This document shows positions 472-13,684 of a DNA stretch of 41,633 bases, piece after piece. Source of the stretch: Kofleriaceae bacterium (GTDB lineage Bacteria > Myxococcota_A > Polyangia > Haliangiales > Haliangiaceae). The stretch is taken from contig JAGPCY010000020.1 in assembly GCA_018057825.1 (NCBI GenBank), forward strand, positions 1 to 41,633, in the 5' to 3' direction. A model generated the notes under the pieces. It saw only the letters and a program-made list of their open reading frames with translations. It was not told where the DNA came from and made no database searches. A program made the translations under genes and the position numbers. Positions within the stretch are counted from its first letter, which is position 1. Each line of letters opens with the position of its first letter.

Positions 472-2778
472 ATGCGCGACTTCGACGATCCGAGGAAGCA
501 GGGGCACAACCCCGAAGCGGCAAGCGGCGGCAAACCCGGCGTCAAGACGCGCGTCGAGTCGCGCTACGGCGGGGTCCAGCGAGCCCGGGCCCCGTCCCCG
601 ACCTATGGGCACCTGTCCCTCGTCCCCGGTCCGGTGATGCCTGAGAACGTCTTCGACACCTTCGCGCTCCACCTCGACCCGGTGCAGCGGGTCGCCGAGG
701 CCACCGCCCTCGGCCTCACGGATCCGGCCGCCGTTCACGCCGCGGCGGCCCGCGGCACCTCCGGCCCCGCCACCACCCTGCCTCACGCCGACGCCATCCA
801 GCGCTCGTTCGGACCCGACCACGACGTCTCCGGCATCCAGGCCCACGTCGGCGGCGCCGCCGCCACCGCCGCGACCGCCATCGGCGCCCGGGCCTACGCC
901 ACCGGCAACCGCGTCGCCTTCGCCAGCGCCCCCGACCTCCACACCGCCGCCCACGAGGCCGCCCACATCGTGCAGCAGCGCGGCGGCGTCCAGCTCGCCG
1001 GCGGCGTCGGCCAGGCCGGCGATCCCTACGAACAACACGCCGACGCCGTCGCCGACGCCGTCGTCGCCGGCCGCTCGGCCGCCGAGCTGCTCACGGGCGG
1101 ACGCAGCGGCGGCGCCACCGATGCGGTCCAGCGCAAGCCAGAGCCTGAGGTCCCCAGCCGCGGACACGACGACCCGGGGAATCGCAACAACGCCTGCGCT
1201 GTCGATGGGGCGCACGCCCCCAACGCGATCGAAGGCATCCAGCTGTACCTTACGGTCGAGGACCGACTGAACGGCCTCGCAACGCGCACCCTCAACTACT
1301 CGGAGATGGGACCTGGCATCGCCGGCCCATACAAACTCTTTGCGCACACGAAGGACGACCTTATCGTCTACTATGTTGCTCACCACGTGGAGCGACAGCA
1401 AAACGAGTGGGTGATCGGTCCCGCCAGCGCGGCGCTGTTCGCGTCGACCGTCGAGCTGTACGCGGGCTCGGCCGCGCAGTTGCTCCCGGGGAGCGCCAGG
1501 GTACCGGGCAGCCAGGCCGATGGTGCCGACCAGGTCAACGACCCGGACTCCGTGGTCAAGCAAGAGGCCCTCGGTCGGGCTCCATGGCAGGTCGCCGCCG
1601 ACGGGCTCGCCGGGGCGTCAGATGCTGTCGGCGACCACACCAGCGGCGGTGGTCTCCTCAACTTCGCTCGGAATTCGCGAATTCGACTCGCAAACTACGT
1701 GCGGCCTGCACAGGAGCTCGCGGAGCAGCTCGCCGCCGATGTCGCCGCTGGAAGAGTCGACCATCTCGAAGCAAGAAGACAAGCGGTGGAGGGGCGCAAC
1801 GCGCTCCTGCTCGATACCAGGCGCCGACAGTCGCCAGCCGCCAGCTATGCGTCGAAGGCCCTAAAGGAGGATCGCGGAAAGTCTGAGTCTGAGATGACCA
1901 GAAAGAAGGTCATCGACAATCTCGAGGACTATCGCGCTTCTGAGGCGACGCGGGCCGTCCTCGACGCCGACTCAGAGCTTTGGGGCAGATACGCCGAGGC
2001 CATGAGCAACGGCGAGGACGTCCTCAAGGACGCGCTTCGCGACCTTGGCCAGAGCCCCGCTGTCTCGCGCTCCATCGTTCAGAGTGCGGGCAAGACGAAC
2101 AAGGCCTTCACGCGTATCGCGCGATGGGGCGGCCCGGTCGGTCTCGCGATCGGATCTCTCGGCGCCGCGGACATGGTCCAGGACATCCGGGACCAGATCG
2201 AAGCTGATAACTGGCACGCCGCCGCCCGCGAGCTGGCCGGATTCGCGGGCGGCGTTGTCGGCGGTGAGCTAGGGGCGATGGGTGCTGTGTGGATTGCGTC
2301 CGCCATCGTGCCAGGGAGTGCCGGCGTCGTGATCGTGGCCTCCATCATCGGTGGCGCTATTGGCGGCCACCTAGGCGCTTCGGGTGGTGAGCGTGCGACG
2401 GACCTCATCGCCAGTGGACTTGCGCCCGGGCTGGTGACCCCTCTGGTATCCGCCGGGGGCTTGGCAGGTGCACACGACAAGGATCGAGCGCGCACCATTG
2501 CGAACCAGATCAAGGACGTCATCTTCAAGGCCGATGGGGACCTTGCCAAGCTCGCTGCGACGATCCCTGCCGCCAGCAGCCGTCGTGAACTCGTGGCTCT
2601 GCAGCGAAAGCGGCTGGAGGTCCTAGCCCGTCGACAGCAGTTGGAGGACTTGCTGACGGCCCTCCGGCTCGGAGCGTTCGAGGGCCCGGACGACTGTGCC
2701 GCACCGCCACCCGCGCCCGCGGCGTCGCAGGCGTGCGACAACTCCGACAACGATTGCGACTCAGAGGTCGGCTGGTGA
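472..2778 (+). CDS. DUF4157 (zincin-like HExxH) domain protein with a long helical C-terminal region and a glycine-zipper hydrophobic segment; polymorphic-toxin-like
   Basis: AGGAGG 7 nt upstream of ATG 472. DUF4157 signature ...GIQAHVGG...[15 protein letters not shown]...[14 protein letters not shown]-terminal segment [47 protein letters not shown] resembles the hydrophobic hairpin of pore-forming toxins. High GC3 in frame. The stop overlaps the next start (GTGA). Confidence 0.7.
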
Positions 2779-3259: not shown

Positions 3260-3661
3260 TTACACGATACTGCGACAACAGTGCGGTCCCACGCGGCTCC
3301 GTGCTCCTCGGCTCGCTCCGGCAGGCTGGGGCAACACACAGCGAAATCCGCCCGGCATGTCGAGGAACACATGATCGCGGTTGCTGATGGTCTTGGCATC
3401 GAGCCATCCGCCGCGCCGCACGCCGCACCGCCGGCCGTCGCAGCGTTGGCCGTCGGCGAGCGGGACCTCGGGATCGACGCAGACGCCGCTGCTGCAGGCC
3501 GGGGCGCGCGTGAAGCCATCGAGCACCCACTCGTACTCGTTCCCGCCCATGTCCATCGCGCCCACCGGGGAGCGATCGCCGGGATAGCTCCCGCGGCCTT
3601 CCCGCGCTGCGGTTACTCGACCGGCCGCTGGGTTGTCCGGTGGAGGTTTACCTCGACCCGT
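3260..3661 (-). pseudogene. Truncated C-terminal fragment (about 85 aa) of an FGE-sulfatase (SUMF1/DUF323) domain; no N-terminal half and no start codon
   Basis: Translation ...GSYPGDRSPVGAMDMGGNEYEWVLDGF...RRGGWLDAKTISNRDHVFLDMPGGFRCV matches the conserved C-terminal FGE-domain motifs (DMxGNVWEW, RGGSW, GFRCV). Upstream in frame the similarity stops and a stop codon lies at 3716-3718. No other minus-strand frame continues the domain. Confidence 0.4.
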
Positions 3662-4521
3662 CGCTGGCCGAGTCGGTCTGCCCGCTCGCAGCGTCGACCG
3701 ACGCGGCCGGCAAGATCACGTTCATCATCCCGACGACGGATCTGCGCAGCGGGTTCGACGTCACGAGCGTGAGCGACGAGAACGGCGTCCCTGGGTTCGG
3801 GCCAATTCGAGCGAAGGACCTCGCCGCACTCCAGCGAACGATCGTCGATGCTGTCAAGCAGAGCGCCTCCACGTCGGCCTTGGTGATGGTGCCGGAGTTC
3901 GCGACCGCGCCGGAGGTCGACGACGAACTCGACCTCATGCACAACAAGACTGGGATCGGGAAGATCGAGGTGCTGGTGGGCGGCTCGGCGTGGCGGGCCC
4001 CGGAGGGCGGGGCGACCCTTGGAAGAAACCGGGCGACGACCTGGCCCCGCGGCCGGGGCGCCCACCACCACGACAAGTACTCGTGGTTCAGCTCCAAGGA
4101 GGGGCAGGAGAACATCCAGCGTGGCTTCCCCCGCATCACGATCCTGGCGGGACCGCGGACCTCCTACACCGTGCTTATCTGCCGCGACTCCCTCGAGCCT
4201 CATGTGCCCGAATTGCTACAGGATTTGCGACTGAGGCTCGTGCTAATTCCGTCGTGCAACCCCGACGTGGGTCCATATAAGGGACGAGCGGTCTCGCTGG
4301 CGGAGCTTGGAGGAGCCACCGTCATCGTCGCCAACTTGCCACCCAACCCGGCGCCATTGTTGGAGTATGGCCTGGTGGTTCGGCCCGCGCGTCCCATGCA
4401 AGAGGGGCGCAGCGCTCAGCCAGAGACCCTCGTTATTTCGGGTCTCTACGCGCCGCGGTTCCAGGTTGACGTCCGCCAGCCTGAAGCGTTCTCGATTGAC
4501 AGAACTGTTCGGCGATCGTAG
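3640..4521 (+). CDS. Carbon-nitrogen hydrolase (nitrilase superfamily)-like protein, divergent
   Basis: Putative catalytic triad contexts LVMVPEF (Glu), HHHDKYSWF (Lys), TVLICRDSLEP (Cys). GC3 is high for the first roughly 200 codons, then base composition becomes AT-richer and codon usage atypical towards the 3' end. Confidence 0.45.
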   Translation: MEVYLDPSLAESVCPLAASTDAAGKITFIIPTTDLRSGFDVTSVSDENGVPGFGPIRAKDLAALQRTIVDAVKQSASTSALVMVPEFATAPEVDDELDLMHNKTGIGKIEVLVGGSAWRAPEGGATLGRNRATTWPRGRGAHHHDKYSWFSSKEGQENIQRGFPRITILAGPRTSYTVLICRDSLEPHVPELLQDLRLRLVLIPSCNPDVGPYKGRAVSLAELGGATVIVANLPPNPAPLLEYGLVVRPARPMQEGRSAQPETLVISGLYAPRFQVDVRQPEAFSIDRTVRRS

Positions 4522-4530
4522 AACAGTCAT

Positions 4531-4863
4531 ATGAAGTCTCCAGCCAACGCCGTGCTGACCCGTCAGGTTGGCGAAGTGGCGGGAGAAGCTGACCAGGGGC
4601 TGGCCGGCAAGCTCGCTTGTCTCGCCGACGCCAAACCCGGCAACGACGCGGAGCGATGTGCGCGCGAGGTGTTGACGTGGCTGATGACGGGCGTGGAGCT
4701 AGCAAAGGCTGCGCGAGCGCAGAGCCCAACGCTTCACGGGAGCGGCGACGCGGCCGAGCCCGAGGCCGAAGCCCCCCATGTCCAGCGCAGGGAGCAACCT
4801 CATCCCGCACGACGCAGACATGGCCCGGTCGTTTCCGTGCAACTCGATCTCTGCATTCGCTGA
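4531..4863 (+). CDS. Hypothetical small protein (110 aa)
   Basis: ATG-initiated ORF filling the gap between flanking genes; mixed codon usage, no recognisable motif. Confidence 0.2.
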   Translation: MKSPANAVLTRQVGEVAGEADQGLAGKLACLADAKPGNDAERCAREVLTWLMTGVELAKAARAQSPTLHGSGDAAEPEAEAPHVQRREQPHPARRRHGPVVSVQLDLCIR

Positions 4864-4901
4864 CATCTCGGCGCTCGATCACTCTAGGCGGAGGGTCTCC
4901 A

Positions 4902-5621
4902 ATGCCTGCCATCGACTTTGTCTTGAAGCGTCTTTCGCTGACCTCGACTCGCGACGAGCTGCGCACCGTCGCGTATGCGCTTGGGGAGTGGCTGGTCGCG
5001 CGCGACGAGTCTGCCTTGAGCGCGAGCTACGATCGCTTGCGGGAGCTGCGCGGCGCCGCGCCGGCTGATTCGGCGTCGCGCGCGAGCTTCGATGTGCTGA
5101 CCAACCTGCTCGAAGGATACTTCGCCTCGGCCGAGAGCGTCCGCCGCGTCGAGCGCATGCAGCGCGAGGTGGAGGCCGAGCCGATCTGGCGAGCCGTGAT
5201 GCAGTGTCTCGCGAGCGAGCCGGCAAACCAGGACCTGTTGTGCCAGCGAGTTGGTCGCGCAAAGTCGACCGTGTCGGTCGTCTGCGAGGATCTTCGACAG
5301 CGTGAGCTGATCGAGCTCGTGCCGAACGCGAGCCGGCGCGAGAACGTCCATGCGCTGACGCGCCTGGGCAAGCAGGTGCTCGCGAGCCTGCCAGCCGAGG
5401 CCCCCAGCGCCGCCGCGTCGTCTGTCGCGACCGCCCAGCCGACCGTCGCGGCCCCGGCCGCGACCAGTGTGCGTCCGGCGAAGGCGACCGGTCCTCGGGC
5501 GCGGCCAGAGCGCGCGTCCGGAACGACGGCATCGACGTCGCGGAAGACGTCGTCGTCGAGTGATCTCGCCCGGCTGACGAGGGGCGGCCACCGGGGGCGG
5601 CGACCGCGGCACCCGTGGTAG
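4902..5621 (+). CDS. Winged-helix (MarR/ArsR-like) DNA-binding protein with an Ala/Ser/Thr-rich tail
   Basis: GGAGGG 6 nt upstream of ATG 4902. wHTH-like segment STVSVVCEDLRQRELIELVPNASRRENVHALTRLGKQVL. Ends 12 nt before the McrB-like gene. Confidence 0.55.
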   Translation: MPAIDFVLKRLSLTSTRDELRTVAYALGEWLVARDESALSASYDRLRELRGAAPADSASRASFDVLTNLLEGYFASAESVRRVERMQREVEAEPIWRAVMQCLASEPANQDLLCQRVGRAKSTVSVVCEDLRQRELIELVPNASRRENVHALTRLGKQVLASLPAEAPSAAASSVATAQPTVAAPAATSVRPAKATGPRARPERASGTTASTSRKTSSSSDLARLTRGGHRGRRPRHPW

Positions 5622-5632
5622 CGTTTCCGCCG

Positions 5633-8533
5633 ATGAACATGACCTTCGCGGACGCAGCGGAGCTGGTGTTGCGGGAGGCGGGGGAGGCGCTGATGGTGGC
5701 GGAGCTGTGGCGGCGGATCGAGGCGCGGGGGCTGGTGGAGACGGCGGGGGCGACGCCGGAGCAGACGCTGCGGGTGATGCTGTTGCGGCAGGCGGCGGGG
5801 TCGTCGCTGGCGGCGGGGAAGGGGACGCCGCGCTTCTATCGGCGGGGCGACGGCGCGTACGGGTTGTGGGCGGAGCTGGCGCCGGCGCAGCAGCAGGCGA
5901 TGGCGGAGGACGCGAGCGTGGCGGCGAAGCGCGTCCGGGTGCGCGACTTTGCGGCGGACCGCGAGGGGATGCGCGCAGACCCGACGGTGGCGGAGCGCAC
6001 GCTGGGGTGGCTGATCCCGGCGGATGGTCCACGGCGGGTGGTGGCGGAGCTCCTGGCCGTCGCGATCGAGGACGCCCACGCCGCCGGGGCCCACCGCTGG
6101 AAGCTGACGCTGGGACCGCGGTCCCTGCGCGTGACGGTGGGGCGTTGTCTGGTCTTGTGGATCGAGCGGCGGGTGTGGTTCCCGGTCCGGCTGGCGTCCT
6201 TGATGGCCGAGGATCGCGCGCTCATCGAGGGCCTCGGCGTCCAGGACACCGAGACCGGTCCGTTTCGCTCGATCGCGCCGGTCGAGTTCTTCACGATCGC
6301 GCCCGAGCTGGTGAGTGAGGCCGCAGAGGCGATCCGCCGCGCGATCGCGCCGATCATCACCGAGGCGGCGGTGGGGACGGCCGATGTCCATGGCGCGAAG
6401 TTCCACTCGCCGGGAGCGCTCACGTTTCTGTCCCAGGTGGTCGGGCGCGCGCTGCCGACGCCAGCCTACGGCGGGCACACCGAGGACGAGGCGCCGGAGG
6501 ACGACCCGGACGGCGACGCGCCGTCGCTGGCGGAGCTGGTGACCGAGTACATCGAGACCTTCGCGACCTTGCCGACGACCCAGGCCTACCTGGCGACCTA
6601 CGCGGCCGAGCGCGCCGCGGCCCGCGCCAACCTCGCGCGCATCGATGAGCTGCAGTCGCGAGGACAGGACGCGACTGACGCGATCCTCCTGGGCCTCCTG
6701 CCGCACACCGACTCGGCCAAGCATCGTCAGGTCGGCGCGTGGGTATCCCACGCCCCGGCGATCCAGGGCGACCTGAAGCTGTGGTTCGAGAACGCGAAGT
6801 GGGTGACGCCCGAGACTTGGCCCCAGGTCGCGGCCGAGCTGCTGGCGTTCGTGCGCGCGTGCCTGGCCAAGCCCCACGATGTGCGCGACGCGATCGCGCG
6901 GTTCACCGCGAGCCCGTGGTCCAAGGGCCTCGGGGTCGGCATGCTGACGCCGATCTTGAACGCGCTGGCGCCCGAGGACTTCCCGCTGGTGAACGCCAAG
7001 GTCGCGCGGGTGGTCGGCTACTTCAGCGGGGTCGAGGTCGAGGCGAGCTTCGCCGGGTACCCGACCGCGGTGCGGCTGTGGCGGACGCTGGTCGACGCGC
7101 AGGCTGGGCTGGGCGATCCGCGCCTCGGGGTCAGCCCGGGGGACGCCTTCGATCACTTCTGCCACTGGCTGGTGGCGGTCAAGCGCTTCGGGTTCGTCGG
7201 CGGTGTGGTGGCCGGCGTCGGCTACTGGAAGATCTCGCCGGGGCCGGGCGCCGAGCGCTGGGACGACTGGCGGACCCGGGGCGTCGCGGCGATCGGCGGC
7301 GAGCTGCTCGGCGACCTGACGCTGGTCGACGATGACGAGTTCGCGGCGCGGGTGGCGGACGCCGCGGCCCAGGACCCGAGCTACAAGATGAACGGGGCCC
7401 GGCAGTCGCTGCATCTGGCGCGGATGGCGATTGGGACGCTGCTGATCGCCAACCGCGGCAAGAATGAGGTGCTGGGGCTGGGCCGGGTCACCGGGCCGTA
7501 TCGCTTCGTCGAAGGGGTCGAGTACTGCCACGAGGTGCCGGTCGAGTGGTTCGACACGACCCCGCGCGCGGTCGAGCGCCCGGGCTGGGCGCGGACCCTG
7601 GTGCAGCTCGACAAGACGACGTACGACGACATCGCGGCCTTGCCGCCCCTCGAGCCCGCGATGGGCCCTGGGCCTGAGCCGCTCCCGGTGCCGCGCTTCG
7701 ATCGCGGACACTTCTTGGCGCAGACCGGCTTCACCGAGGCCACGGCCGACCGATGGTTCCGCATCCTGCAAGAGCGCAAGCAGCTCGTCATCCAGGGGCC
7801 GCCCGGAACCGGCAAGACCTGGGTCGCCGAGCGCCTGGCGCGCTGGTTGGTCGGCGGCGACGAGGCCCGCATCCACCTGGTGCAGTTCCACCCGGCGTAC
7901 AGCTACGAGGACTTCATCGAGGGCATCCGGCCGGTGTCGCGCGGCGCGGCGCTCAGCTACGAGCGCGTTCCGGGCTACCTCATGCAGCTCTGTCAGGTGA
8001 TGCCGCGACAGGGGCCGGTGGTCCTCATCATCGACGAGATCAACCGCGCCAACCTGCCGCGGGTGTTCGGTGAGCTGATGTACCTCCTCGAGTATCGCGA
8101 TCGGACCGTGCGGCTCGCCGGCGGTGGCGAGCTGGGCCTCCCGCTCAATCTCCATCTGATCGGGACGATGAACACCGCGGACCGATCGATCGCGCGGCTC
8201 GATCACGCCTTGCGCCGCCGCTTTGCGTTCCTCCGACTGCCGCCGGACTTCGAGGTCCTGCGCCGGTTCGCCGCGACGCACTGGTCGGAGCCGGTGGACG
8301 CGCTGATCGGGGTGCTCGAGGCGATCAACCGCGACATCGACAACCCCGACGGCCACCTCGGCATCTCCTACTTCATGAAGGAGGATCTGGCCGACCGCCT
8401 CGAGGACATCTGGCGCTGCGAGATCGAGCCGTACCTCGAGGAGCTGTTCTTCGACGACCGCGCGACGGCGGCCAAGTACACCTGGGACAAGCTGGCGGGC
8501 GGAGCGCTGGCGGGCTGGGTCGACGAGGCGTGA
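5633..8533 (+). CDS. mcrB: McrB-family AAA+ GTPase with a roughly 700-aa N-terminal extension that begins with a HARE-HTH domain
   Basis: McrB motifs: GPPGTGKTW (Walker A), FHPAYSYEDFIEG, LIIDEINRANLPRVFGEL (Walker B), IGTMNTADRS (NxxD GTP specificity), ALRRRFAF. N-terminus MTFADAAELVLREAGEALMVAELWRRIEARGL...TPEQTLRVML matches the HARE-HTH pattern. High GC3. Track ORF starts at GTG 5615; ATG 5633 chosen. Confidence 0.85.
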   Translation: MNMTFADAAELVLREAGEALMVAELWRRIEARGLVETAGATPEQTLRVMLLRQAAGSSLAAGKGTPRFYRRGDGAYGLWAELAPAQQQAMAEDASVAAKRVRVRDFAADREGMRADPTVAERTLGWLIPADGPRRVVAELLAVAIEDAHAAGAHRWKLTLGPRSLRVTVGRCLVLWIERRVWFPVRLASLMAEDRALIEGLGVQDTETGPFRSIAPVEFFTIAPELVSEAAEAIRRAIAPIITEAAVGTADVHGAKFHSPGALTFLSQVVGRALPTPAYGGHTEDEAPEDDPDGDAPSLAELVTEYIETFATLPTTQAYLATYAAERAAARANLARIDELQSRGQDATDAILLGLLPHTDSAKHRQVGAWVSHAPAIQGDLKLWFENAKWVTPETWPQVAAELLAFVRACLAKPHDVRDAIARFTASPWSKGLGVGMLTPILNALAPEDFPLVNAKVARVVGYFSGVEVEASFAGYPTAVRLWRTLVDAQAGLGDPRLGVSPGDAFDHFCHWLVAVKRFGFVGGVVAGVGYWKISPGPGAERWDDWRTRGVAAIGGELLGDLTLVDDDEFAARVADAAAQDPSYKMNGARQSLHLARMAIGTLLIANRGKNEVLGLGRVTGPYRFVEGVEYCHEVPVEWFDTTPRAVERPGWARTLVQLDKTTYDDIAALPPLEPAMGPGPEPLPVPRFDRGHFLAQTGFTEATADRWFRILQERKQLVIQGPPGTGKTWVAERLARWLVGGDEARIHLVQFHPAYSYEDFIEGIRPVSRGAALSYERVPGYLMQLCQVMPRQGPVVLIIDEINRANLPRVFGELMYLLEYRDRTVRLAGGGELGLPLNLHLIGTMNTADRSIARLDHALRRRFAFLRLPPDFEVLRRFAATHWSEPVDALIGVLEAINRDIDNPDGHLGISYFMKEDLADRLEDIWRCEIEPYLEELFFDDRATAAKYTWDKLAGGALAGWVDEA

Positions 8534-9708
8534 CGGTCCTCGACCTGACCGAGTGGAGCTGGGCGCCGCTCGGCGACGACGGCGCGGCGATCGCTGCGGC
8601 GGTCCGCGCGAGTCAGGTGCGGGGCCTCGAGGTCGCACCGCCGGACCCGTTGGCCGGCGAGCCGTGGCGACTGCGGTCGACTGGCCTGGTGGGCTACCTG
8701 CCCCTCGGCGCGGGGCTGCCGGCGCTTCGGATCGCGCCGAAGGTTCCGATCGCCAGCCTGGTGATGCTGCTCGAGCGGGCCTACGATCTCGGCAGCCTGC
8801 GGTGGCAACCGGGCGTCACGGCCGCGGCCACGATCGAGGGCCTGTACGACGTGCTGCTCGGACGGTTGTGTGAGCTGGTCGGGGCGCGGCTTCGCCGTGG
8901 GCTGTATCGCGCCTACGTCGAGACCCAGGACGAGCTGGTGATGCTGCGCGGAAGGCTCGCGGTCCCCGAGACGCTCGGTCGAGCGGCGCGCGGCAGCGTC
9001 CGGCTGGTGTGCGACTTCGAGGAGCTGACCGAGGATCTCGACGACAACCGCCTGATCCTGTGGACCCTCGAGCGCGCGCGGCGGGTCGGCCTCGGGCGAC
9101 CGTCCACCCGCGCCGCGGTCCGCGCGCACCATCGGTCGCTGTCCGGGGCGGTGACCCTGACGTCCTTCGCGGGCGCGGCGTGCGAGGGCCGCGCGTACCA
9201 CCGCCTGAACGCCGACTACCGGCCCATCCACGCGCTGTGTCGGGCGGTGCTCGATGCCTGCGGCGAGGCGGCCGCCGGTGGCCCGGCCGACGCGGTGCCG
9301 TTCACCGTCGACATGCCGCGGCTGTTCGAGCGCTTCGCGGCGCGCTGGCTGGCCGCCGAGCTGGCGCCGTGGCGCGTCGAGGCCCAGCATCCGTTCTCCC
9401 TCGATGCCGATCTCTCGTACTCCATCGATGTCGTGGTGCGCGACCCAAACACCCGTCGCGCCGTCGCGGTCCTCGACACCAAGTACAAGGACGCCGTGCG
9501 CCCGGCGCCGGCCGATGTGCAGCAGGTCGTGTTCTACGCCACCGTGCTCGGCTGCACCGACGCCTGGCTCTGGTACCCGCGCGCGGTCCCTCATCGCACG
9601 GTCACCGCGGGCGGCGTGCGGGTCCACACCTGCGGGCTCGATCTGGCGCGACCGGCGACCTGGCCGGCGGTGATCCCGGCGCTCGCGCGGACGCTGGCGG
9701 CGGCGTGA
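8530..9708 (+). CDS. mcrC: McrC-like PD-(D/E)xK nuclease subunit
   Basis: GTG 8530 overlaps the McrB stop (GTGA). C-terminal SIDVVVRD...AVLDTKYK matches the McrC (I/V)xDxKYK nuclease motif. Confidence 0.75.
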   Translation: MTVLDLTEWSWAPLGDDGAAIAAAVRASQVRGLEVAPPDPLAGEPWRLRSTGLVGYLPLGAGLPALRIAPKVPIASLVMLLERAYDLGSLRWQPGVTAAATIEGLYDVLLGRLCELVGARLRRGLYRAYVETQDELVMLRGRLAVPETLGRAARGSVRLVCDFEELTEDLDDNRLILWTLERARRVGLGRPSTRAAVRAHHRSLSGAVTLTSFAGAACEGRAYHRLNADYRPIHALCRAVLDACGEAAAGGPADAVPFTVDMPRLFERFAARWLAAELAPWRVEAQHPFSLDADLSYSIDVVVRDPNTRRAVAVLDTKYKDAVRPAPADVQQVVFYATVLGCTDAWLWYPRAVPHRTVTAGGVRVHTCGLDLARPATWPAVIPALARTLAAA

Positions 9709-9788
9709 GGAGCGATGCGCGTGCGACGGCGCTGGAGAGGTCACGCCGACGTCGACGGGGCGGGGACCATCAGCAACATCGTCAAGCC

Positions 9789-9920
9789 ATGACCCGAATC
9801 GTCGTGCTCATCGCGATGATCGTAGGGTGCGGCAAGGGAGCCTCTGAGATGCCTACGTCTACAGCCGGAAACACGGCCGCCAACGTCGCAGCGGCCACGC
9901 CCTCGAGCGCGGCGCGGTGA
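9789..9920 (+). CDS. Putative small lipoprotein (43 aa)
   Basis: MTRIVVLIAMIVGCGKGAS signal peptide with a lipobox-like IVGC. No clear RBS. Confidence 0.3.
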   Translation: MTRIVVLIAMIVGCGKGASEMPTSTAGNTAANVAAATPSSAAR

Positions 9921-10062
9921 CGCCGTGATCGATCGGCGGAGTCTCGTTGTCGCTCGGCAGGTTCATCGCGGCACGTAGCTCATGGCGGTGCGATGGGCGC
10001 TGTCGGCGTGGGTGGCGCGCGGGAGCAGCGTACGGCTGACAGACCGCGGTATCCTCGCGGCC

Positions 10063-10332
10063 ATGAGGCAAACACTGTTGGTCGTCGTGCTTTTCGCCGC
10101 GTGTGGTGGGCCGCGCTCGACGGCGCCGGGTGGGGGCACGGCGGGGGGTGGGGATGGCAGCGGTTCGGCGACGACGGGGGGCGAGGGCGCGATCTGTGCG
10201 GTGGGCGCCCAGAACCAGGATCCGAACGCTCAGGCGGTGGCCTGCGCCGAGGGGCTCGAGTGCTGCTACCCGTGCGGCATCGAGGGCTGCGACTCGGTGT
10301 GCATGAAGGACTGCGGACCGCCGCGACCCTAG
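10063..10332 (+). CDS. Small Cys-rich lipoprotein (89 aa)
   Basis: MRQTLLVVVLFAACGG lipoprotein signal (lipobox FAAC), Gly-rich linker, then 10 Cys in 45 aa (CAVGAQ...CAEGLECCYPCGIEGCDSVCMKDC). Confidence 0.45.
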   Translation: MRQTLLVVVLFAACGGPRSTAPGGGTAGGGDGSGSATTGGEGAICAVGAQNQDPNAQAVACAEGLECCYPCGIEGCDSVCMKDCGPPRP

Positions 10333-10588
10333 GGTATCGTGAGGGGCCCGGTCGGCGGCGCAGGTTGCGCGAGCTGGGTGCCGTCGGGGGCGACCTCGAC
10401 GTTCGAAGCGCTGCAGACGCTGCGTGGCGAACAGATGCTGGAGGTCCGTGCGACGGTCGAGGAGCTCACGGCGCTGGCCTCGGACAGGAGGACGATGTGA
10501 AATAGCAGCGCCCTGGCCCGGCGGAAGGCCCGACCGCGGCGCGTTCGCCCTTGCTGTCCCATCACGTCTATTCGTCAGGGGCCCCTCC

Positions 10589-13500
10589 GTGACCACGATC
10601 AAGCAGCTCGCCGACCAGCGCGGTGTCAAGGTCACCGACGTGAAGCAGGTGCTGCGCAAGGCCTTCGCCGGCAACGAGTTCAAGTCGCCCGACTACTCGC
10701 TGTCGCCGGCGGAGGTCGCCGCGGTGATGGAGGGACTCCCGGCGCAGCTCGCCGCCCGCCGCGCGGCGCCGCGGGACGTCGCGGTCGAGCGGATCGCGGT
10801 GCCGCTCTTGGGCTGCGACGGGGTGCCGATCTCGGCGTCGACGGCGAGCCCGGCGATGCCGCAGGCCGGGGGCCGGGTGCGCCTGCTGCTCCACGGCGAC
10901 GTGATCGACTTCCTCGAGCGTGGGCGCGGCGAGGACCGGCCGCGGCAAGCGGCGGTGCAGCGCCTCCTGCGCGGGATGCTGGTCGAGGGGCGCGCGCAGC
11001 GCAGCGTGAAGGGCACGGTGGGCGTCAACCGGGGCTGGCTCCGCGCGCCGATCGGCGACAACGGCGGCTCGCACTACTACCTGTGGCACGCGCTGGCGGG
11101 CACGCCGTGTGTGGCCGCGCTCGCGCTGGGCAGGGATGAGGTCGTGGTGCGGGCGATCCGCCACCACGACGACACCAAGGTGGCGATCTCGGTGGGCGCG
11201 CGCGAGGACTACGTCGTCCTCGACGCCAGCGACTACGTGAGCCAGGTCGAGGCGGGCACCAAGGCCGCCGACTCGCTGTCCGACCCGCAGCGTCAGGCCT
11301 TCGACGCCGGCAGCTCGGTGACGATCACCAAGGGCCATCCCGGGGCGGGCAAGACCACGCTCCAGCTCGAGCGCACGCGCCGCCACGCCGGGCGGATCCT
11401 GTTTCAGACCTTCGGCGCCGCGCAGTGCGCGCAGGGGCGGCGCTGGCTCGAGACCTACGCGCCGCGCGGGCAGGTGGCGCGGGCCCTCACCCACGGCGAG
11501 GTCCTGGCCGCGCTGGCCCCGGGCCTTCCGGTGGCGCCGCCCCTCGAGCAGGCGGTGCGGTACCTGCGCCGCGCGCTCGCCCACGAGCCTCGGCTCGGCC
11601 CGTGGCGCGACCGGTGGACCGCGCTCCACGCCGAGCTGCGGGCCTGGTACTGGGGGCGGGCGCTGCCGGTCGACTTCCGCGGGGTCGACGCGATCGGCGC
11701 GGCCGCGACCGACGACGACCTCGAGCGCGGCTACCGGCGGCGACGGGACGGGGCCCTGCCGGCCGATGGGATCGACGCGGTGGTCGTGGCGGCGCGCGCG
11801 CTGTCGGCGGAGGACCGCGCGCACCTGTTCGGCGACCTCGAGGGCGCCCGGGCGGTGGCGGAGGCGCTCCTCGGCGGGGCCGATCTCCCAGCGGAGCTCC
11901 GCGACCTCGAGGCGATCTTCATCGACGAGGTCCAGGACCTGACCCTGGTCGAGGCCCTGGTCAATGTGCTGGTGGCCCGTCGCCCGGCCGCGTCGACCGG
12001 CTGTCGGCCGGCCTTCCACGTCGCTGGCGACGAAGGCCAGACCGTGCGCGCGACCGACTTCGCCTGGGGTGAGCTGAAGGACCTCATCCACGACGCGCTC
12101 GGGACCCCGACCGAGGTCGAGCTTCCGGGGAACCTGCGCTCGCCGCGGGTGATCACGCAGATCATCAACAACTCGTGGGCGCTGTACCAGGTGCTCGACA
12201 AGGGCGATCGGCCGCGGGGCGCCAGCACGGCCGAGGTCACCGAGGCGGCGATCGGCACGGTCTTGTGGGTCGACGCGGGTGGGTCGGAGGATGACGCAAC
12301 CGATGGGCCAGAGGGCGGGCCCGACGGCGGGTTGCGCGAGGTGTTCGCGGCGGCCGCCGGCCACGGCGCGACGATCCTGTATCCGGACGTGTTCGTGCCC
12401 GACGAGCTGCAGGCGCTGGCGCGAGCGACCAAGGCGACCGTGCAGGCGGCGCCCGACGCCAAGGGCCTCGACTTCCGCGTGGCCTTCGTGCTCGACGTCG
12501 GCCGACGGGCCCACGACCTGGCGACCCGACGCGGCGCGGCGCGCGACGGCGTGGCGGCGATCGAGACCCGGCTGGCGGTCGACGCGATCCGGGTCGCGCT
12601 GTCGCGCGCGACCGAGACGCTGGTCCTGGTCGAGCGCCCGCTGGCGGGGCAGGCCGAGGCGCAGCTCCGGCAGTTGTGCCAGGGCACCGACGGCCGCTTG
12701 CTCGACGGCGTCGTGACCGTGGAGCGCGGTGAGCTGGCGTCGCGCCTCGACGTCGACACCCACGATCGGGTCGAGATCGCGTCGGCGGCCCTCGAGGAGT
12801 TCGACGCGGTGGCCGGCGACGATCCGCGGCGCGCGCTCCGGGTGATGGCGCGGGCCCGCGGCTGGCTGGGCGAGACCTCGCGGGCCGGCGCGGTGCAAGG
12901 CGAGCTGCGGCGCAAGGTCTACCGGGCCCACGGCCTCGCGCTCCTGCAGGCGGCGGTGAGCTTCGCCGAGGACCGCGAGGCCCGGCTCACCCAGGCCAAC
13001 CGCGAGCTGTCGCTCGGCAAGGAGCACGAGCTGTCGCGCCTGGCCCTCGAGGTGCGCGACGCGATCGCGAGCACCGACACGCTCAAGCCGGCGGTCGCGC
13101 GCGCCACCGAGCTCGTGCGGGGCCAGCCCGAGCACGCGCGGCTCGGGTGGGCGCTCCTCGAGCTCGTCCTCGCCGAGGTCGCGCAGCGCGCCGACGCGTT
13201 CGAGCTGCGCGACTGGGACCGCGTGGTGAAGGCGCTGGAGCTGCTCGGCGGCGCTGGCGAAGCTACGCGCAACGCGGCGAGTCAGCGGTCGCAGCTCGGG
13301 CAGCGCGCCGTCACCTGGGCCGTCGCGCAGGGGCCGGGGAAGGCGACGACGACCATGGCGGTCGCGGCCCTGGCGATGATCGAGGCACCGTCGGCGATCC
13401 TGCGCGCGCAGCTCGCGGAGCGTCGCGAGGCCTGGGACGAGGCGATCTCACTCTACGACGAGGCCGGGCTGCCCCTCGAGGCCCTGCGCGTCGCCCGCGA

Positions 13501-13684
13501 TCACGACGAGTCGCCGGCCCGCGCCCTGGCCTTCGCGCGCTCCGCCGGCGCGCCGGAGGTCGGCCTGCTGGAGCGCCTGGCCCGCGTCCACGTGGACCTC
13601 GCCGCGCTGGCGCCGGCGGACCTCACGGAGAGCGAGCGGCAGAGGCTCGTCCAGTTCGCGCGCGAGCGTTTCGGGAAGCGGTGA
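10589..13684 (+). CDS. Divergent UvrD/PcrA-like SF1 helicase-family P-loop NTPase (1031 aa) with an N-terminal Rho_N/SAP-like motif and a roughly 350-aa helical Ala/Leu/Arg/Glu-rich C-terminal extension
   Basis: GTG 10589. Walker A TKGHPGAGKTTL; motif II IFIDEVQDLT; motif III HVAGDEGQTVRATDF; motif IV NLRSPRVITQI; motif VI IRVALSRATETLVLV. N-terminal TIKQLADQRGVKVTDVKQVLRK resembles Rho_N/SAP helix-extension-helix. High GC3. Confidence 0.75.
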   Translation: MTTIKQLADQRGVKVTDVKQVLRKAFAGNEFKSPDYSLSPAEVAAVMEGLPAQLAARRAAPRDVAVERIAVPLLGCDGVPISASTASPAMPQAGGRVRLLLHGDVIDFLERGRGEDRPRQAAVQRLLRGMLVEGRAQRSVKGTVGVNRGWLRAPIGDNGGSHYYLWHALAGTPCVAALALGRDEVVVRAIRHHDDTKVAISVGAREDYVVLDASDYVSQVEAGTKAADSLSDPQRQAFDAGSSVTITKGHPGAGKTTLQLERTRRHAGRILFQTFGAAQCAQGRRWLETYAPRGQVARALTHGEVLAALAPGLPVAPPLEQAVRYLRRALAHEPRLGPWRDRWTALHAELRAWYWGRALPVDFRGVDAIGAAATDDDLERGYRRRRDGALPADGIDAVVVAARALSAEDRAHLFGDLEGARAVAEALLGGADLPAELRDLEAIFIDEVQDLTLVEALVNVLVARRPAASTGCRPAFHVAGDEGQTVRATDFAWGELKDLIHDALGTPTEVELPGNLRSPRVITQIINNSWALYQVLDKGDRPRGASTAEVTEAAIGTVLWVDAGGSEDDATDGPEGGPDGGLREVFAAAAGHGATILYPDVFVPDELQALARATKATVQAAPDAKGLDFRVAFVLDVGRRAHDLATRRGAARDGVAAIETRLAVDAIRVALSRATETLVLVERPLAGQAEAQLRQLCQGTDGRLLDGVVTVERGELASRLDVDTHDRVEIASAALEEFDAVAGDDPRRALRVMARARGWLGETSRAGAVQGELRRKVYRAHGLALLQAAVSFAEDREARLTQANRELSLGKEHELSRLALEVRDAIASTDTLKPAVARATELVRGQPEHARLGWALLELVLAEVAQRADAFELRDWDRVVKALELLGGAGEATRNAASQRSQLGQRAVTWAVAQGPGKATTTMAVAALAMIEAPSAILRAQLAERREAWDEAISLYDEAGLPLEALRVARDHDESPARALAFARSAGAPEVGLLERLARVHVDLAALAPADLTESERQRLVQFARERFGKR

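What the first reader, a model, noticed from the sequence alone, without database searches (positions are those of the whole stretch)
4902..9708. McrBC-like module whose McrB has a roughly 700-aa N-terminal extension starting with a HARE-HTH, preceded by a wHTH gene
The sequence shows a canonical McrB GTPase core (GPPGTGKT, DEINRANL, NTAD, ALRRRFAF) and a McrC partner (LDTKYK nuclease motif) joined by a GTGA overlap. The McrB core is preceded by about 700 residues. These open with a HARE-HTH-like winged helix, previously noted as fused to McrB-type restriction GTPases. Two further regions follow. One is unassignable. One is a roughly 170-aa block (YWKISPGPGAERWDDW...MAIGTLLIANRGKNEVLGLGRVTGPYRFVEG...HEVPVEWFDT) whose spacing of conserved Gly/Trp/hydrophobic residues is reminiscent of PUA-like (EVE/ASCH-type) modified-base readers. 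A wHTH gene ends 12 nt upstream. This is far larger than classical McrB DNA-reader domains. It could represent a modification-dependent restriction system with a new target-recognition architecture.
Basis: partly seen in the sequence, partly recalled or inferred. Interest (0 to 1): 0.8.

Follow-up and report, generated by a model that had tools for sequence, protein, structure and literature searches.

The report
McrBC restriction system, four-domain DNA sensor
This is an intact McrBC-type restriction system from a Kofleriaceae (Myxococcota) bacterium; its motor subunit carries an unusually long four-domain sensor that includes an undescribed domain shared by a small, widely scattered McrB subfamily, and the neighbouring wHTH gene is not part of it.

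Summary
On the + strand there is a 239-aa wHTH ORF (4902-5621), a 966-aa McrB homologue (5633-8533) and a 392-aa McrC (8530-9708), joined by a GTGA overlap. The GTPase core and the McrC nuclease motif are intact.

The roughly 700-aa extension resolves into four modules:
- HARE-HTH (aa 3-78), above the Pfam cut-off.
- Domain A (about aa 85-300), an alpha/beta domain with no family and weak YjbR/MotA-CTD-like fold matches.

Domain B is the constant hallmark of a modular McrB subfamily. It has 570 clusters and occurs in at least 130 species across many phyla, almost always with McrC. It is also fused to GmrSD_N, TIR, EVE and MrcB_N. HARE plus A occur almost only in Myxococcota.

The wHTH gene is found only in near-identical strains. 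It belongs to a lower-GC inserted cassette and is not a conserved component.

Verdict: a new variant of a known kind, of moderate interest.

The parts
4902..5621 (+). Adjacent wHTH (MarR-like) ORF, 239 aa. Not a conserved component of the system. It is the last gene of a lower-GC three-gene cassette (293 aa, 110 aa, wHTH).
   Evidence: Sub-threshold MarR_2/HTH_27/HVO_A0261_N matches at aa 97-162. Found only in near-identical strains. 220-aa form in sister strains; the tail here is frameshifted. GC 0.67 in the first two thirds against 0.72-0.74 for mcrBC.
5633..8533 (+). McrB homologue, 966 aa: HARE-HTH, domain A, domain B, DUF8426 (EVE/YTH-like), then McrB GTPase with lid.
5639..5866 (+). HARE-HTH winged-helix domain (aa 3-78).
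   Evidence: Pfam PF05066, E 4.2e-11, 43.5 bits against a cut-off of 25.9.
5885..6532 (+). Domain A (aa 85-300), an alpha/beta domain with no Pfam family. Mobile within the subfamily: it sits before or after B.
6533..7216 (+). Domain B (aa 301-528), all-alpha, and the constant hallmark of the subfamily. Motifs LLPHTDS (6695-6715), GMLTPILNAL (6938-6967), FDHFCHWLV (7148-7174). No Pfam family. HhH-GPD-glycosylase-like fold (tentative).
7217..7672 (+). Block C (aa 529-680), Pfam DUF8426 (PF28530), an EVE/YTH-type PUA-like beta-barrel.
7733..8530 (+). McrB AAA+ GTPase core and lid (aa 701-966). Walker A at 7796-7819, Walker B DEINRAN at 8033-8053, NxxD signature NTAD at 8171-8182, RRRF at 8207-8230.
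   Evidence: McrB_lid (PF28529).
8530..9708 (+). McrC homologue, 392 aa, with a PD-(D/E)xK nuclease motif (IDVVV...LDTKYK, 9424-9489). Its GTG start overlaps the mcrB TGA (8530-8533).
   Evidence: Pfam McrBC E 5.6e-29. NCBIfam McrC 3e-22. Alignment to TgMcrC 6ut5_G with the motif aligned. Overlap read.

Best explanation
This is a functional two-gene McrBC-type (Type IV, GTP-dependent) restriction system in a Kofleriaceae bacterium. By analogy with E. coli and archaeal McrBC, the N-terminal part of McrB selects the target DNA. The C-terminal AAA+ GTPase assembles into hexamers that bind McrC and translocate DNA, and McrC's PD-(D/E)xK site cuts. What differs here is the selector, an array of four modules. 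HARE-HTH is a winged helix linked in the literature to reading modified DNA. Domain A is a possible double-wing/YjbR-like DNA binder. Domain B is an all-alpha domain that resembles HhH-GPD base-flipping glycosylases. DUF8426 is an EVE/YTH-type PUA barrel, the classic flipped-modified-base pocket. Domain B is the ancestral, obligatory selector of this McrB subfamily, since in many members it is the only N-terminal domain. C, A and HARE-HTH are accretions that probably widen or sharpen specificity for modified or hypermodified phage DNA. Shown: gene structure, motifs, domain boundaries, the PUA fold of C, family distribution and the McrC linkage. Inferred: DNA (not RNA) as target, modification dependence, base flipping by B and C, and which modification is read. 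The upstream wHTH gene belongs to a separately acquired cassette and is at most a local regulator.
For: The McrB core and McrC are intact with all catalytic motifs, and the genes are translationally coupled. The identical protein is seen on 14-19 contigs, and 966-aa orthologues occur in sister strains. The signature is NTAD, i.e. the canonical NxxD clade, not the NxD CoCoNuT clade (PMC11090510). Block C has an EVE/YTH fold, with matches to DNA-reading EVE domains of restriction enzymes and to archaeal McrB N-terminal domains. Domain B is present in every member. B-GTPase alone accounts for 27 of the 75 species loci that carry a GTPase. McrC was detected downstream in 53 of 61 loci with enough sequence. 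B is also fused to other defence effectors and readers: GmrSD_N, TIR_2, MrcB_N, EVE, Mrr_N. B's best fold matches by two programs are HhH-GPD glycosylases, and it also matches PUGT gp46, a glycosylase-like enzyme that flips modified T in dsDNA (PMC11472151). Distribution is sparse and spans many phyla, with presence on cyanobacterial plasmids next to an RM system, which is typical of defence genes. The wHTH gene is absent from all other loci.
Confidence: 0.7

Rival explanations
1. Domain B is an enzyme rather than a passive reader. It could be an active DNA glycosylase/lyase or a base-modifying enzyme. In that case the system would damage or mark foreign DNA first (as glycosylase-based defences do), and McrBC would act on the product.
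For: The best fold matches are active glycosylases and the PUGT transferase. Domain B keeps near-invariant polar residues that could form an active site: D504, D507, H511, K456, N443, N454, Y476.
Against: There is no sequence-level relation to any glycosylase family. No canonical GxG hairpin or assignable catalytic Asp or Lys was found. In all characterised McrB homologues the N-terminal domain is a non-catalytic reader (established knowledge; PMC11090510, PMC7641849).
Confidence: 0.12
2. The system targets RNA, or unmodified or structured nucleic acid, rather than modified DNA.
For: YTH domains, among the best matches of block C, are mostly m6A-RNA readers. Some McrBC relatives (CoCoNuTs) are predicted to target RNA (PMC11090510).
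Against: The GTPase has the canonical NxxD signature (NTAD), not NxD, and there are no coiled coils, CSD or HEPN domains. McrC keeps a DNA-type PD-(D/E)xK site. Co-occurring domains in the subfamily are DNA readers: HARE-HTH, EVE of restriction enzymes, MrcB_N, Mrr_N.
Confidence: 0.08
3. The wHTH gene is a dedicated transcriptional regulator, making this a three-gene module.
For: It has the same orientation and lies only 11 nt before mcrB in this strain. It is linked to mcrBC in all near-identical strains. It has a MarR-like HTH.
Against: It is absent from all 80 other species loci and from the four other lineages with the same McrB architecture. One contig with identical mcrBC has a breakpoint inside the gene (window 5173). 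The spacing is 70 nt, and the C-terminus differs, in sister strains. It shares low GC with the two genes upstream of it, and that trio is missing between the PLD/AAA pair and mcrB in relative L003.
Confidence: 0.15
4. The extra N-terminal domains are regulatory, for example autoinhibition or sensing of phage proteins or nucleotides, rather than DNA selectors.
For: Up to four or more reader-like domains per protein is more than simple target recognition needs. PUA-like domains can bind free modified nucleotides in other defence systems (abstract of 10.64898/2026.01.15.699771).
Against: In the minimal B-GTPase members no other selector exists. The same domains are fused to stand-alone nucleases such as GmrSD_N.
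Confidence: 0.08

Closest known systems
E. coli K-12 McrBC (Type IV restriction; McrB = DUF3578/ADAM reader + AAA+ GTPase; McrC = DUF2357 + PD-(D/E)xK)
   Same: The GTPase core is homologous over 257 residues at E 2e-43, with Walker A, Walker B, NxxD and the Arg motif. A McrC partner with the nuclease motif is present. mcrB lies upstream of mcrC and overlaps it.
   Different: No DUF3578 domain is present.
EVE-McrB and YTH-McrB fusions (Bell et al. 2020, PMC7641849; T. gammatolerans and S. marinus McrB N-terminal domains)
   Different: Block C is not detected by Pfam EVE (PF01878) and belongs to DUF8426. It is never the sole reader here and always follows domain B. Some relatives carry a bona fide EVE as well.
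HARE-HTH fusions to restriction endonucleases and methylases (Aravind & Iyer 2012, as summarised in PMC4738411 and PMC11037411)
   Same: An N-terminal HARE-HTH on a restriction-system protein, predicted to read DNA modification.
   Different: Here it is combined with three further modules. Within the domain-B subfamily it is confined to Myxococcota. The original 2012 paper could not be read here.
HhH-GPD DNA glycosylases (Ogg2/Tm1821, AGOG, EndoIII, MutY, MagIII, AlkA) and the glycosylase-like phage enzyme PUGT gp46
   Different: There is no significant sequence-profile similarity and no assignable HhH hairpin or catalytic residues. Domain B is fused to defence effectors rather than acting alone.
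NTD-wH-NTPase/McrC systems (Front Microbiol 2024, PMC11037411)
   Same: An McrB-like NTPase with an uncharacterised N-terminal domain plus a winged helix, paired with McrC. These are uncharacterised biochemically.
   Different: That group was defined by DpnI-like wH domains between the NTD and the NTPase. Here the wH is a HARE-HTH at the extreme N-terminus. Identity of the 'NTD' with A or B was not tested.

Membership tests
McrBC Type IV restriction system | McrB-type AAA+ GTPase with Walker A, Walker B and the NxxD signature | tested here: met
   GPPGTGKT, DEINRAN, NTAD, RRRF. E 2e-43 to E. coli McrB structures. NCBIfam McrB at 1e-41, though below the equivalog cut-off, as expected for a domain-only match.
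McrBC Type IV restriction system | Adjacent McrC with an N-terminal McrB-binding region and a PD-(D/E)xK nuclease | tested here: met
   Pfam McrBC covers profile positions 2-318 of 318, E 5.6e-29. IDVVV...LDTKYK aligns to the TgMcrC PDYVV...LDAKYR motif.
McrBC Type IV restriction system | Operon with mcrB upstream of mcrC, conserved across relatives | tested here: met
   GTGA overlap. McrC lies downstream of the GTPase in 53 of 61 related loci with room.
McrBC Type IV restriction system | GTP-dependent cleavage of modified DNA | not testable with these tools
   Needs biochemistry or phage challenge.
HARE-HTH (PF05066) | Profile match above the gathering threshold | tested here: met
   43.5 bits against 25.9, aa 3-78 covering profile positions 1-68 of 71.
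PUA-like superfamily (EVE/YTH/ASCH) | Beta-barrel fold with flanking helices, superposable on EVE/YTH domains | tested here: met
EVE domain family proper (PF01878) | Sequence-profile match to Pfam EVE | tested here: not met
   No EVE hit for the window protein at E up to 0.1. The block is Pfam DUF8426. True EVE domains occur as additional domains in relatives.
PUA-like superfamily (EVE/YTH/ASCH) | Aromatic or hydrophobic pocket for a flipped modified base | tested here: inconclusive
   W4, W15, Y95, H105 and W111 of the block are conserved. Two other Trp residues common in the family are G and L in the window clade. Model coordinates could not be inspected.
HhH-GPD DNA glycosylase superfamily (for domain B) | Fold similarity to the two-lobed helical glycosylase core | tested here: inconclusive
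HhH-GPD DNA glycosylase superfamily (for domain B) | Helix-hairpin-helix GxG motif followed by a Gly/Pro-rich loop and a catalytic Asp | tested here: inconclusive
   One hhalign run places GMLTPILNAL...LVN on the EndoIII HhH...D138, which would give Asn in place of Asp. A richer profile shifts the register. Position 454 is N/T/S and never D in 82 members, and D504 and D507 are near-invariant.
HhH-GPD DNA glycosylase superfamily (for domain B) | Significant sequence-profile relation | tested here: not met
   hhalign E 0.83 and 0.11. No Pfam HhH-GPD hit in 43 members at E up to 10. No glycosylase in the PDB profile search.
CoCoNuT subclass of McrBC | NxD GTPase signature, long coiled coils, RNA-linked domains | tested here: not met
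   The motif is NTAD (NxxD). No coiled-coil, CSD or HEPN families were found. Definition taken from PMC11090510.
   tblastn finds wHTH only in the window strain cluster, i.e. L004-L006 in that search, with L005 truncated. Sister-strain loci L089/L090 also carry it.

The most novel reading that the evidence does not exclude
Domain B is a glycosylase-derived, base-flipping module, whether catalytically dead or repurposed, that acts as a previously unrecognised class of modified-base selector for Type IV restriction. It drives McrB GTPases, GmrSD-type nucleases and even TIR effectors. The HARE-A-B-C array in Myxococcota would then read a hypermodified base combinatorially, for example 5hmU-derived or deazapurine adducts.
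Probability: 0.3. Interest if true: 0.7.

Novelty: new variant of a known kind. Interest (0 to 1): 0.5.

Why it matters
McrBC specificity is set by its N-terminal reader, and only a handful of reader folds have been characterised (DUF3578/ADAM, EVE, YTH, and wH in related enzymes). This locus exposes a compact subfamily of about 570 sequence clusters across Cyanobacteria, Chloroflexota, Myxococcota, Acidobacteriota, Planctomycetota and some archaea. Its obligatory reader (domain B) has no family annotation and is labelled only 'AAA family ATPase' in RefSeq. It may derive from base-flipping DNA glycosylases. If B reads a particular phage hypermodification, it would add a new recognition module for epigenetic-sequencing enzymes. 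It would also explain how hosts counter hypermodified phage DNA. A cultured carrier, Calothrix sp. PCC 6303 plasmid pCAL6303.01, makes this testable.

Tried and rejected
- Sequence routes to name domains A and B all failed. These were Pfam, NCBIfam and PADLOC on the whole protein, Pfam on 43 family members at E up to 10, and a profile search of all PDB sequences (only chance hits to TtrD and transketolase).
- hhalign of domain B against E. coli Nth+MutY gave E 0.83. Against 80 Nth homologues fetched from metagenomes it gave E 0.11. Neither is significant and the registers disagree. I therefore dropped an initially attractive 'catalytic Asp replaced by Asn' claim. The metagenome scan returned only close (69-100%) Nth relatives and so was a poor profile.
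- The third homologue search, with domain A alone, returned a single gene fragment and added nothing.
- The afdb50 fold library was unavailable.
- The promoter/terminator scan of 4400-10500 found nothing above shuffles.
- Aravind & Iyer 2012 (PMC3272235) is not held, so HARE-HTH-McrB precedent rests on later papers and the Pfam name.
- No paper mentions DUF8426.
- No homologue of B or C occurs in 50,697 phage records.
- I considered that PF28529 might be domain B. It is the McrB lid.

Full report
**Observation**

The window is high-GC (about 72%). Three co-directional ORFs occupy 4902-9708 on the + strand:
- a 239-aa ORF (4902-5621);
- a 966-aa ORF starting at the ATG at 5633 and ending at 8533;
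- a 392-aa ORF (8530-9708).

The stop of the first ORF (TAG, 5619-5621) lies 11 nt before the ATG. The GTG start of the third ORF overlaps the TGA of the second as GTGA at 8530-8533. GC3 is 0.93 and 0.91 for the two large ORFs, so both are clearly coding.

**The conserved core**

Residues 701-957 of the large protein align to E. coli McrB structures at E 2e-43. They also match NCBIfam McrB (1e-41) and Pfam AAA_5 (9e-24). The core carries Walker A (GPPGTGKT), Walker B (DEINRAN), the NxxD signature (NTAD) and the RRRF motif. A newer Pfam release also places McrB_lid (PF28529) at the C-terminus.

The downstream protein matches Pfam McrBC over the whole profile (5.6e-29). It also matches T. gammatolerans McrC (1e-11), with its IDVVV...LDTKYK aligned on the PD...DxK nuclease motif. 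This is therefore a canonical McrB-McrC pair of the NxxD clade. It is not a CoCoNuT, which is defined by an NxD signature and coiled coils (PMC11090510).

**Anatomy of the 700-residue extension**

A homologue search with aa 1-700, an alignment and a domain-by-domain phmmer map split the extension into four independently occurring modules.

1. HARE-HTH, aa 3-78. It scores above the Pfam cut-off.
2. Domain A, about aa 85-300.
3. Domain B, about aa 301-528. It is very conserved, with motifs LLPHTDS..HR..GAW, GMLTPILNAL and FDxFCHWLVAVK.
4. Block C, aa 529-680.

Neither A nor B has any Pfam, NCBIfam or PADLOC family. C gives a weak hit to PADLOC candidate PDC-S02.

**Folds**

One caveat: in the window's clade, two Trp residues that most DUF8426 members keep are replaced (IGWD becomes IGGE; QVWxF becomes QSLHL). 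The pocket may therefore be altered.

*Domains A and B.* AF2 on a 43-row alignment gave pLDDT 90.7. It shows an alpha/beta domain (A), a disordered acidic linker, and an all-alpha domain (B).

No sequence-profile method supports the link. One hhalign run aligned GMLTPILNAL...LVN with the EndoIII HhH...Asp138, which would make the catalytic Asp an Asn. A richer profile shifted the register. I therefore treat 'HhH-GPD-like fold' as a lead and make no claim about catalytic residues.

Across 82 domain-B sequences, the following residues are invariant or nearly so: P357, W370, W396, P440, N443, N454 (N/T/S, never D), K456, Y476, D504, D507, H511 and W512. That pattern fits a defined ligand pocket.

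**Distribution and modularity**

A profile of B alone finds 570 clusters at E of 1e-3 or better among 1.84 billion representatives.

A pattern scan of one genome per species found 130 loci in 185,579 species. This is a lower bound. They lie in Myxococcota, Chloroflexota, many Cyanobacteria, Acidobacteriota, Planctomycetota and a few archaea.

Mapping my five domain queries plus McrC onto the 80 loci retrieved by that scan showed the following:
- B is always present.
- The common architectures are B-GTPase, B-C-GTPase and B-C-insert-GTPase.
- McrC lies downstream in 53 of 61 loci with enough sequence.
- HARE plus A occur only in the Myxococcota loci.

Among the 142 further representatives mapped with HMMs, A and C occur on either side of B, and only one representative has HARE. 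A Pfam scan of 50 representatives found AAA_5 in 37, EVE in 8 and DUF2461 in 5. MrcB_N (the E. coli 5mC reader), Mrr_N, GmrSD_N, TIR_2 and McrC itself each occurred once (GmrSD_N also).

B is therefore the obligatory module of the subfamily and the only N-terminal domain in the minimal members. It also travels with other defence effectors and with established modified-DNA readers. That pattern is what one expects of a target-selecting domain in Type IV systems.

RefSeq annotates carriers merely as 'AAA family ATPase'. One example is on Calothrix sp. PCC 6303 plasmid pCAL6303.01, next to McrC and an m5C-methyltransferase/Eco29kI RM pair. There are no homologues in phage genomes.

**The wHTH gene**

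Its HTH matches are below the Pfam cut-offs, although JGI names it a MarR family regulator. It exists only in a cluster of sequences at least 87% identical from one Kofleriaceae species group.

In sister strains it is 220 aa and ends 70 nt before mcrB. The window's 239-aa form, and its 11-nt spacing, arise from a frameshifted tail. tblastn finds no homologue in any other locus, including the four other lineages with the same HARE-A-B-C-GTPase McrB (L001/L007, L002, L003, L008). One contig with an identical mcrBC diverges completely to the left of window position 5173, inside the gene.

The gene shares low GC (0.65-0.70) with the two ORFs upstream of it. That trio is 480 aa, 113 aa and wHTH in L089, and is truncated to 293 aa, 110 aa and wHTH in the window. 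In relative L003 the trio is missing between the PLDc_2/AAA pair and mcrB. It looks like an inserted cassette, not a component of the restriction system.

**Mechanism (inferred)**

By homology, the GTPase hexamer binds McrC and uses GTP to translocate DNA from sites chosen by the N-terminal readers, and McrC cleaves. B is the primary selector. C, an EVE/YTH barrel, probably captures a flipped modified base. HARE-HTH and A add DNA contacts or a second specificity.

The literature proposes that HARE-HTH and PUA-like domains discriminate modified bases in R-M contexts (PMC4738411, PMC11037411, PMC7641849). Which modification is read cannot be deduced here.

Rivals are scored separately in the report: B as an enzyme, RNA as target, regulatory roles for the extra domains, and wHTH as a dedicated regulator.

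**Novelty and verdict**

The kind of system is known, and so are fusions of PUA-like domains to McrB (PMC7641849) and of HARE-HTH to restriction enzymes (PMC4738411). Block C is already catalogued as a DUF.

What is new:
- Domain B is recognised as an unannotated, conserved hallmark of a modular McrB subfamily, with a possible glycosylase-like fold.
- Domain A is recognised as a second unannotated module.
- The four-module array is confined to Myxococcota.

I rate this a new variant of a known kind, with interest about 0.5.

Noticed in passing
window 10589-13684 (+) (ORF from 10424): A 1031-aa P-loop protein with no Pfam, NCBIfam, PADLOC or PDB match. SF1/UvrD-like helicase motifs are readable in it (GHPGAGKTT, FIDEVQD, VAGDEGQ, LPGNLRSP, KGLDF, VALSRATETLVLVE). 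Homologues at 72% identity lie beside the same McrBC in L001/L007, L002 and L008, upstream there and downstream here. None is seen near the degraded McrBC of L003. It could be a linked defence gene.
   Followed up: partly
window 3640-5621; L089 5169-7663: A lower-GC (0.65-0.70) cassette of three ORFs: 480 aa, 113 aa and wHTH. In the window the first ORF is truncated to 293 aa. The cassette is absent between the PLDc_2/AAA pair and mcrB in relative L003, so it looks like an insertion of unknown function.
   Followed up: partly
L005, left of locus position 9541 (= window 5173): A contig with 100% identical mcrBC and downstream genes has a completely unrelated left flank. The breakpoint lies inside the wHTH ORF. 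This could be strain variation, a rearrangement or an assembly chimera.
   Followed up: partly
L001 379-3356; L003 3056-5973; L089 2053-5066: A PLDc_2 nuclease gene followed by a sigma54-activator-like AAA_5 ATPase gene lies just upstream of this McrBC in several Myxococcota relatives, often after an SF1 helicase (AAA_11/AAA_12). It may be a second NTPase-nuclease defence pair. It is missing from the window.
   Followed up: no
L003 8089-10012: In the Myxococcales MAG GCA_016717005.1, the orthologous mcrB GTPase region and mcrC are split over several frames, so they are probably pseudogenes. The called McrB is 845 aa and lacks the lid.
   Followed up: partly
window 472-2778 (+): A 768-aa gene with Pfam eCIS_core (PF13699) lies upstream. 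A differently sized eCIS_core gene (696 aa) lies in the alternative left flank of L005.
   Followed up: no
L173 (Calothrix sp. PCC 6303 plasmid pCAL6303.01) 4806-7669: A minimal B-GTPase McrB (WP_015173917.1, annotated 'AAA family ATPase') plus McrC sits beside a DNA cytosine methyltransferase and an Eco29kI-family endonuclease on a mobilizable plasmid of a cultured cyanobacterium. This is a convenient experimental model. It also hints that this McrBC tolerates that m5C methylation.
   Followed up: no
P0040, and representatives in alignment A7: Domain B is also fused to GmrSD_N (DUF262), to a TIR domain, to the E. coli-type MrcB_N 5mC reader and directly to McrC in single representatives. P0026, P0028 and P0039 combine B with PF27126 (name unknown).
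   Followed up: partly
window 7217-7672 (block C): The window clade's DUF8426 has lost two tryptophans that most family members conserve (IGWD becomes IGGE; QVWxF becomes QSLHL). This suggests changed or relaxed pocket specificity in the clade that gained HARE-HTH and domain A.
   Followed up: no
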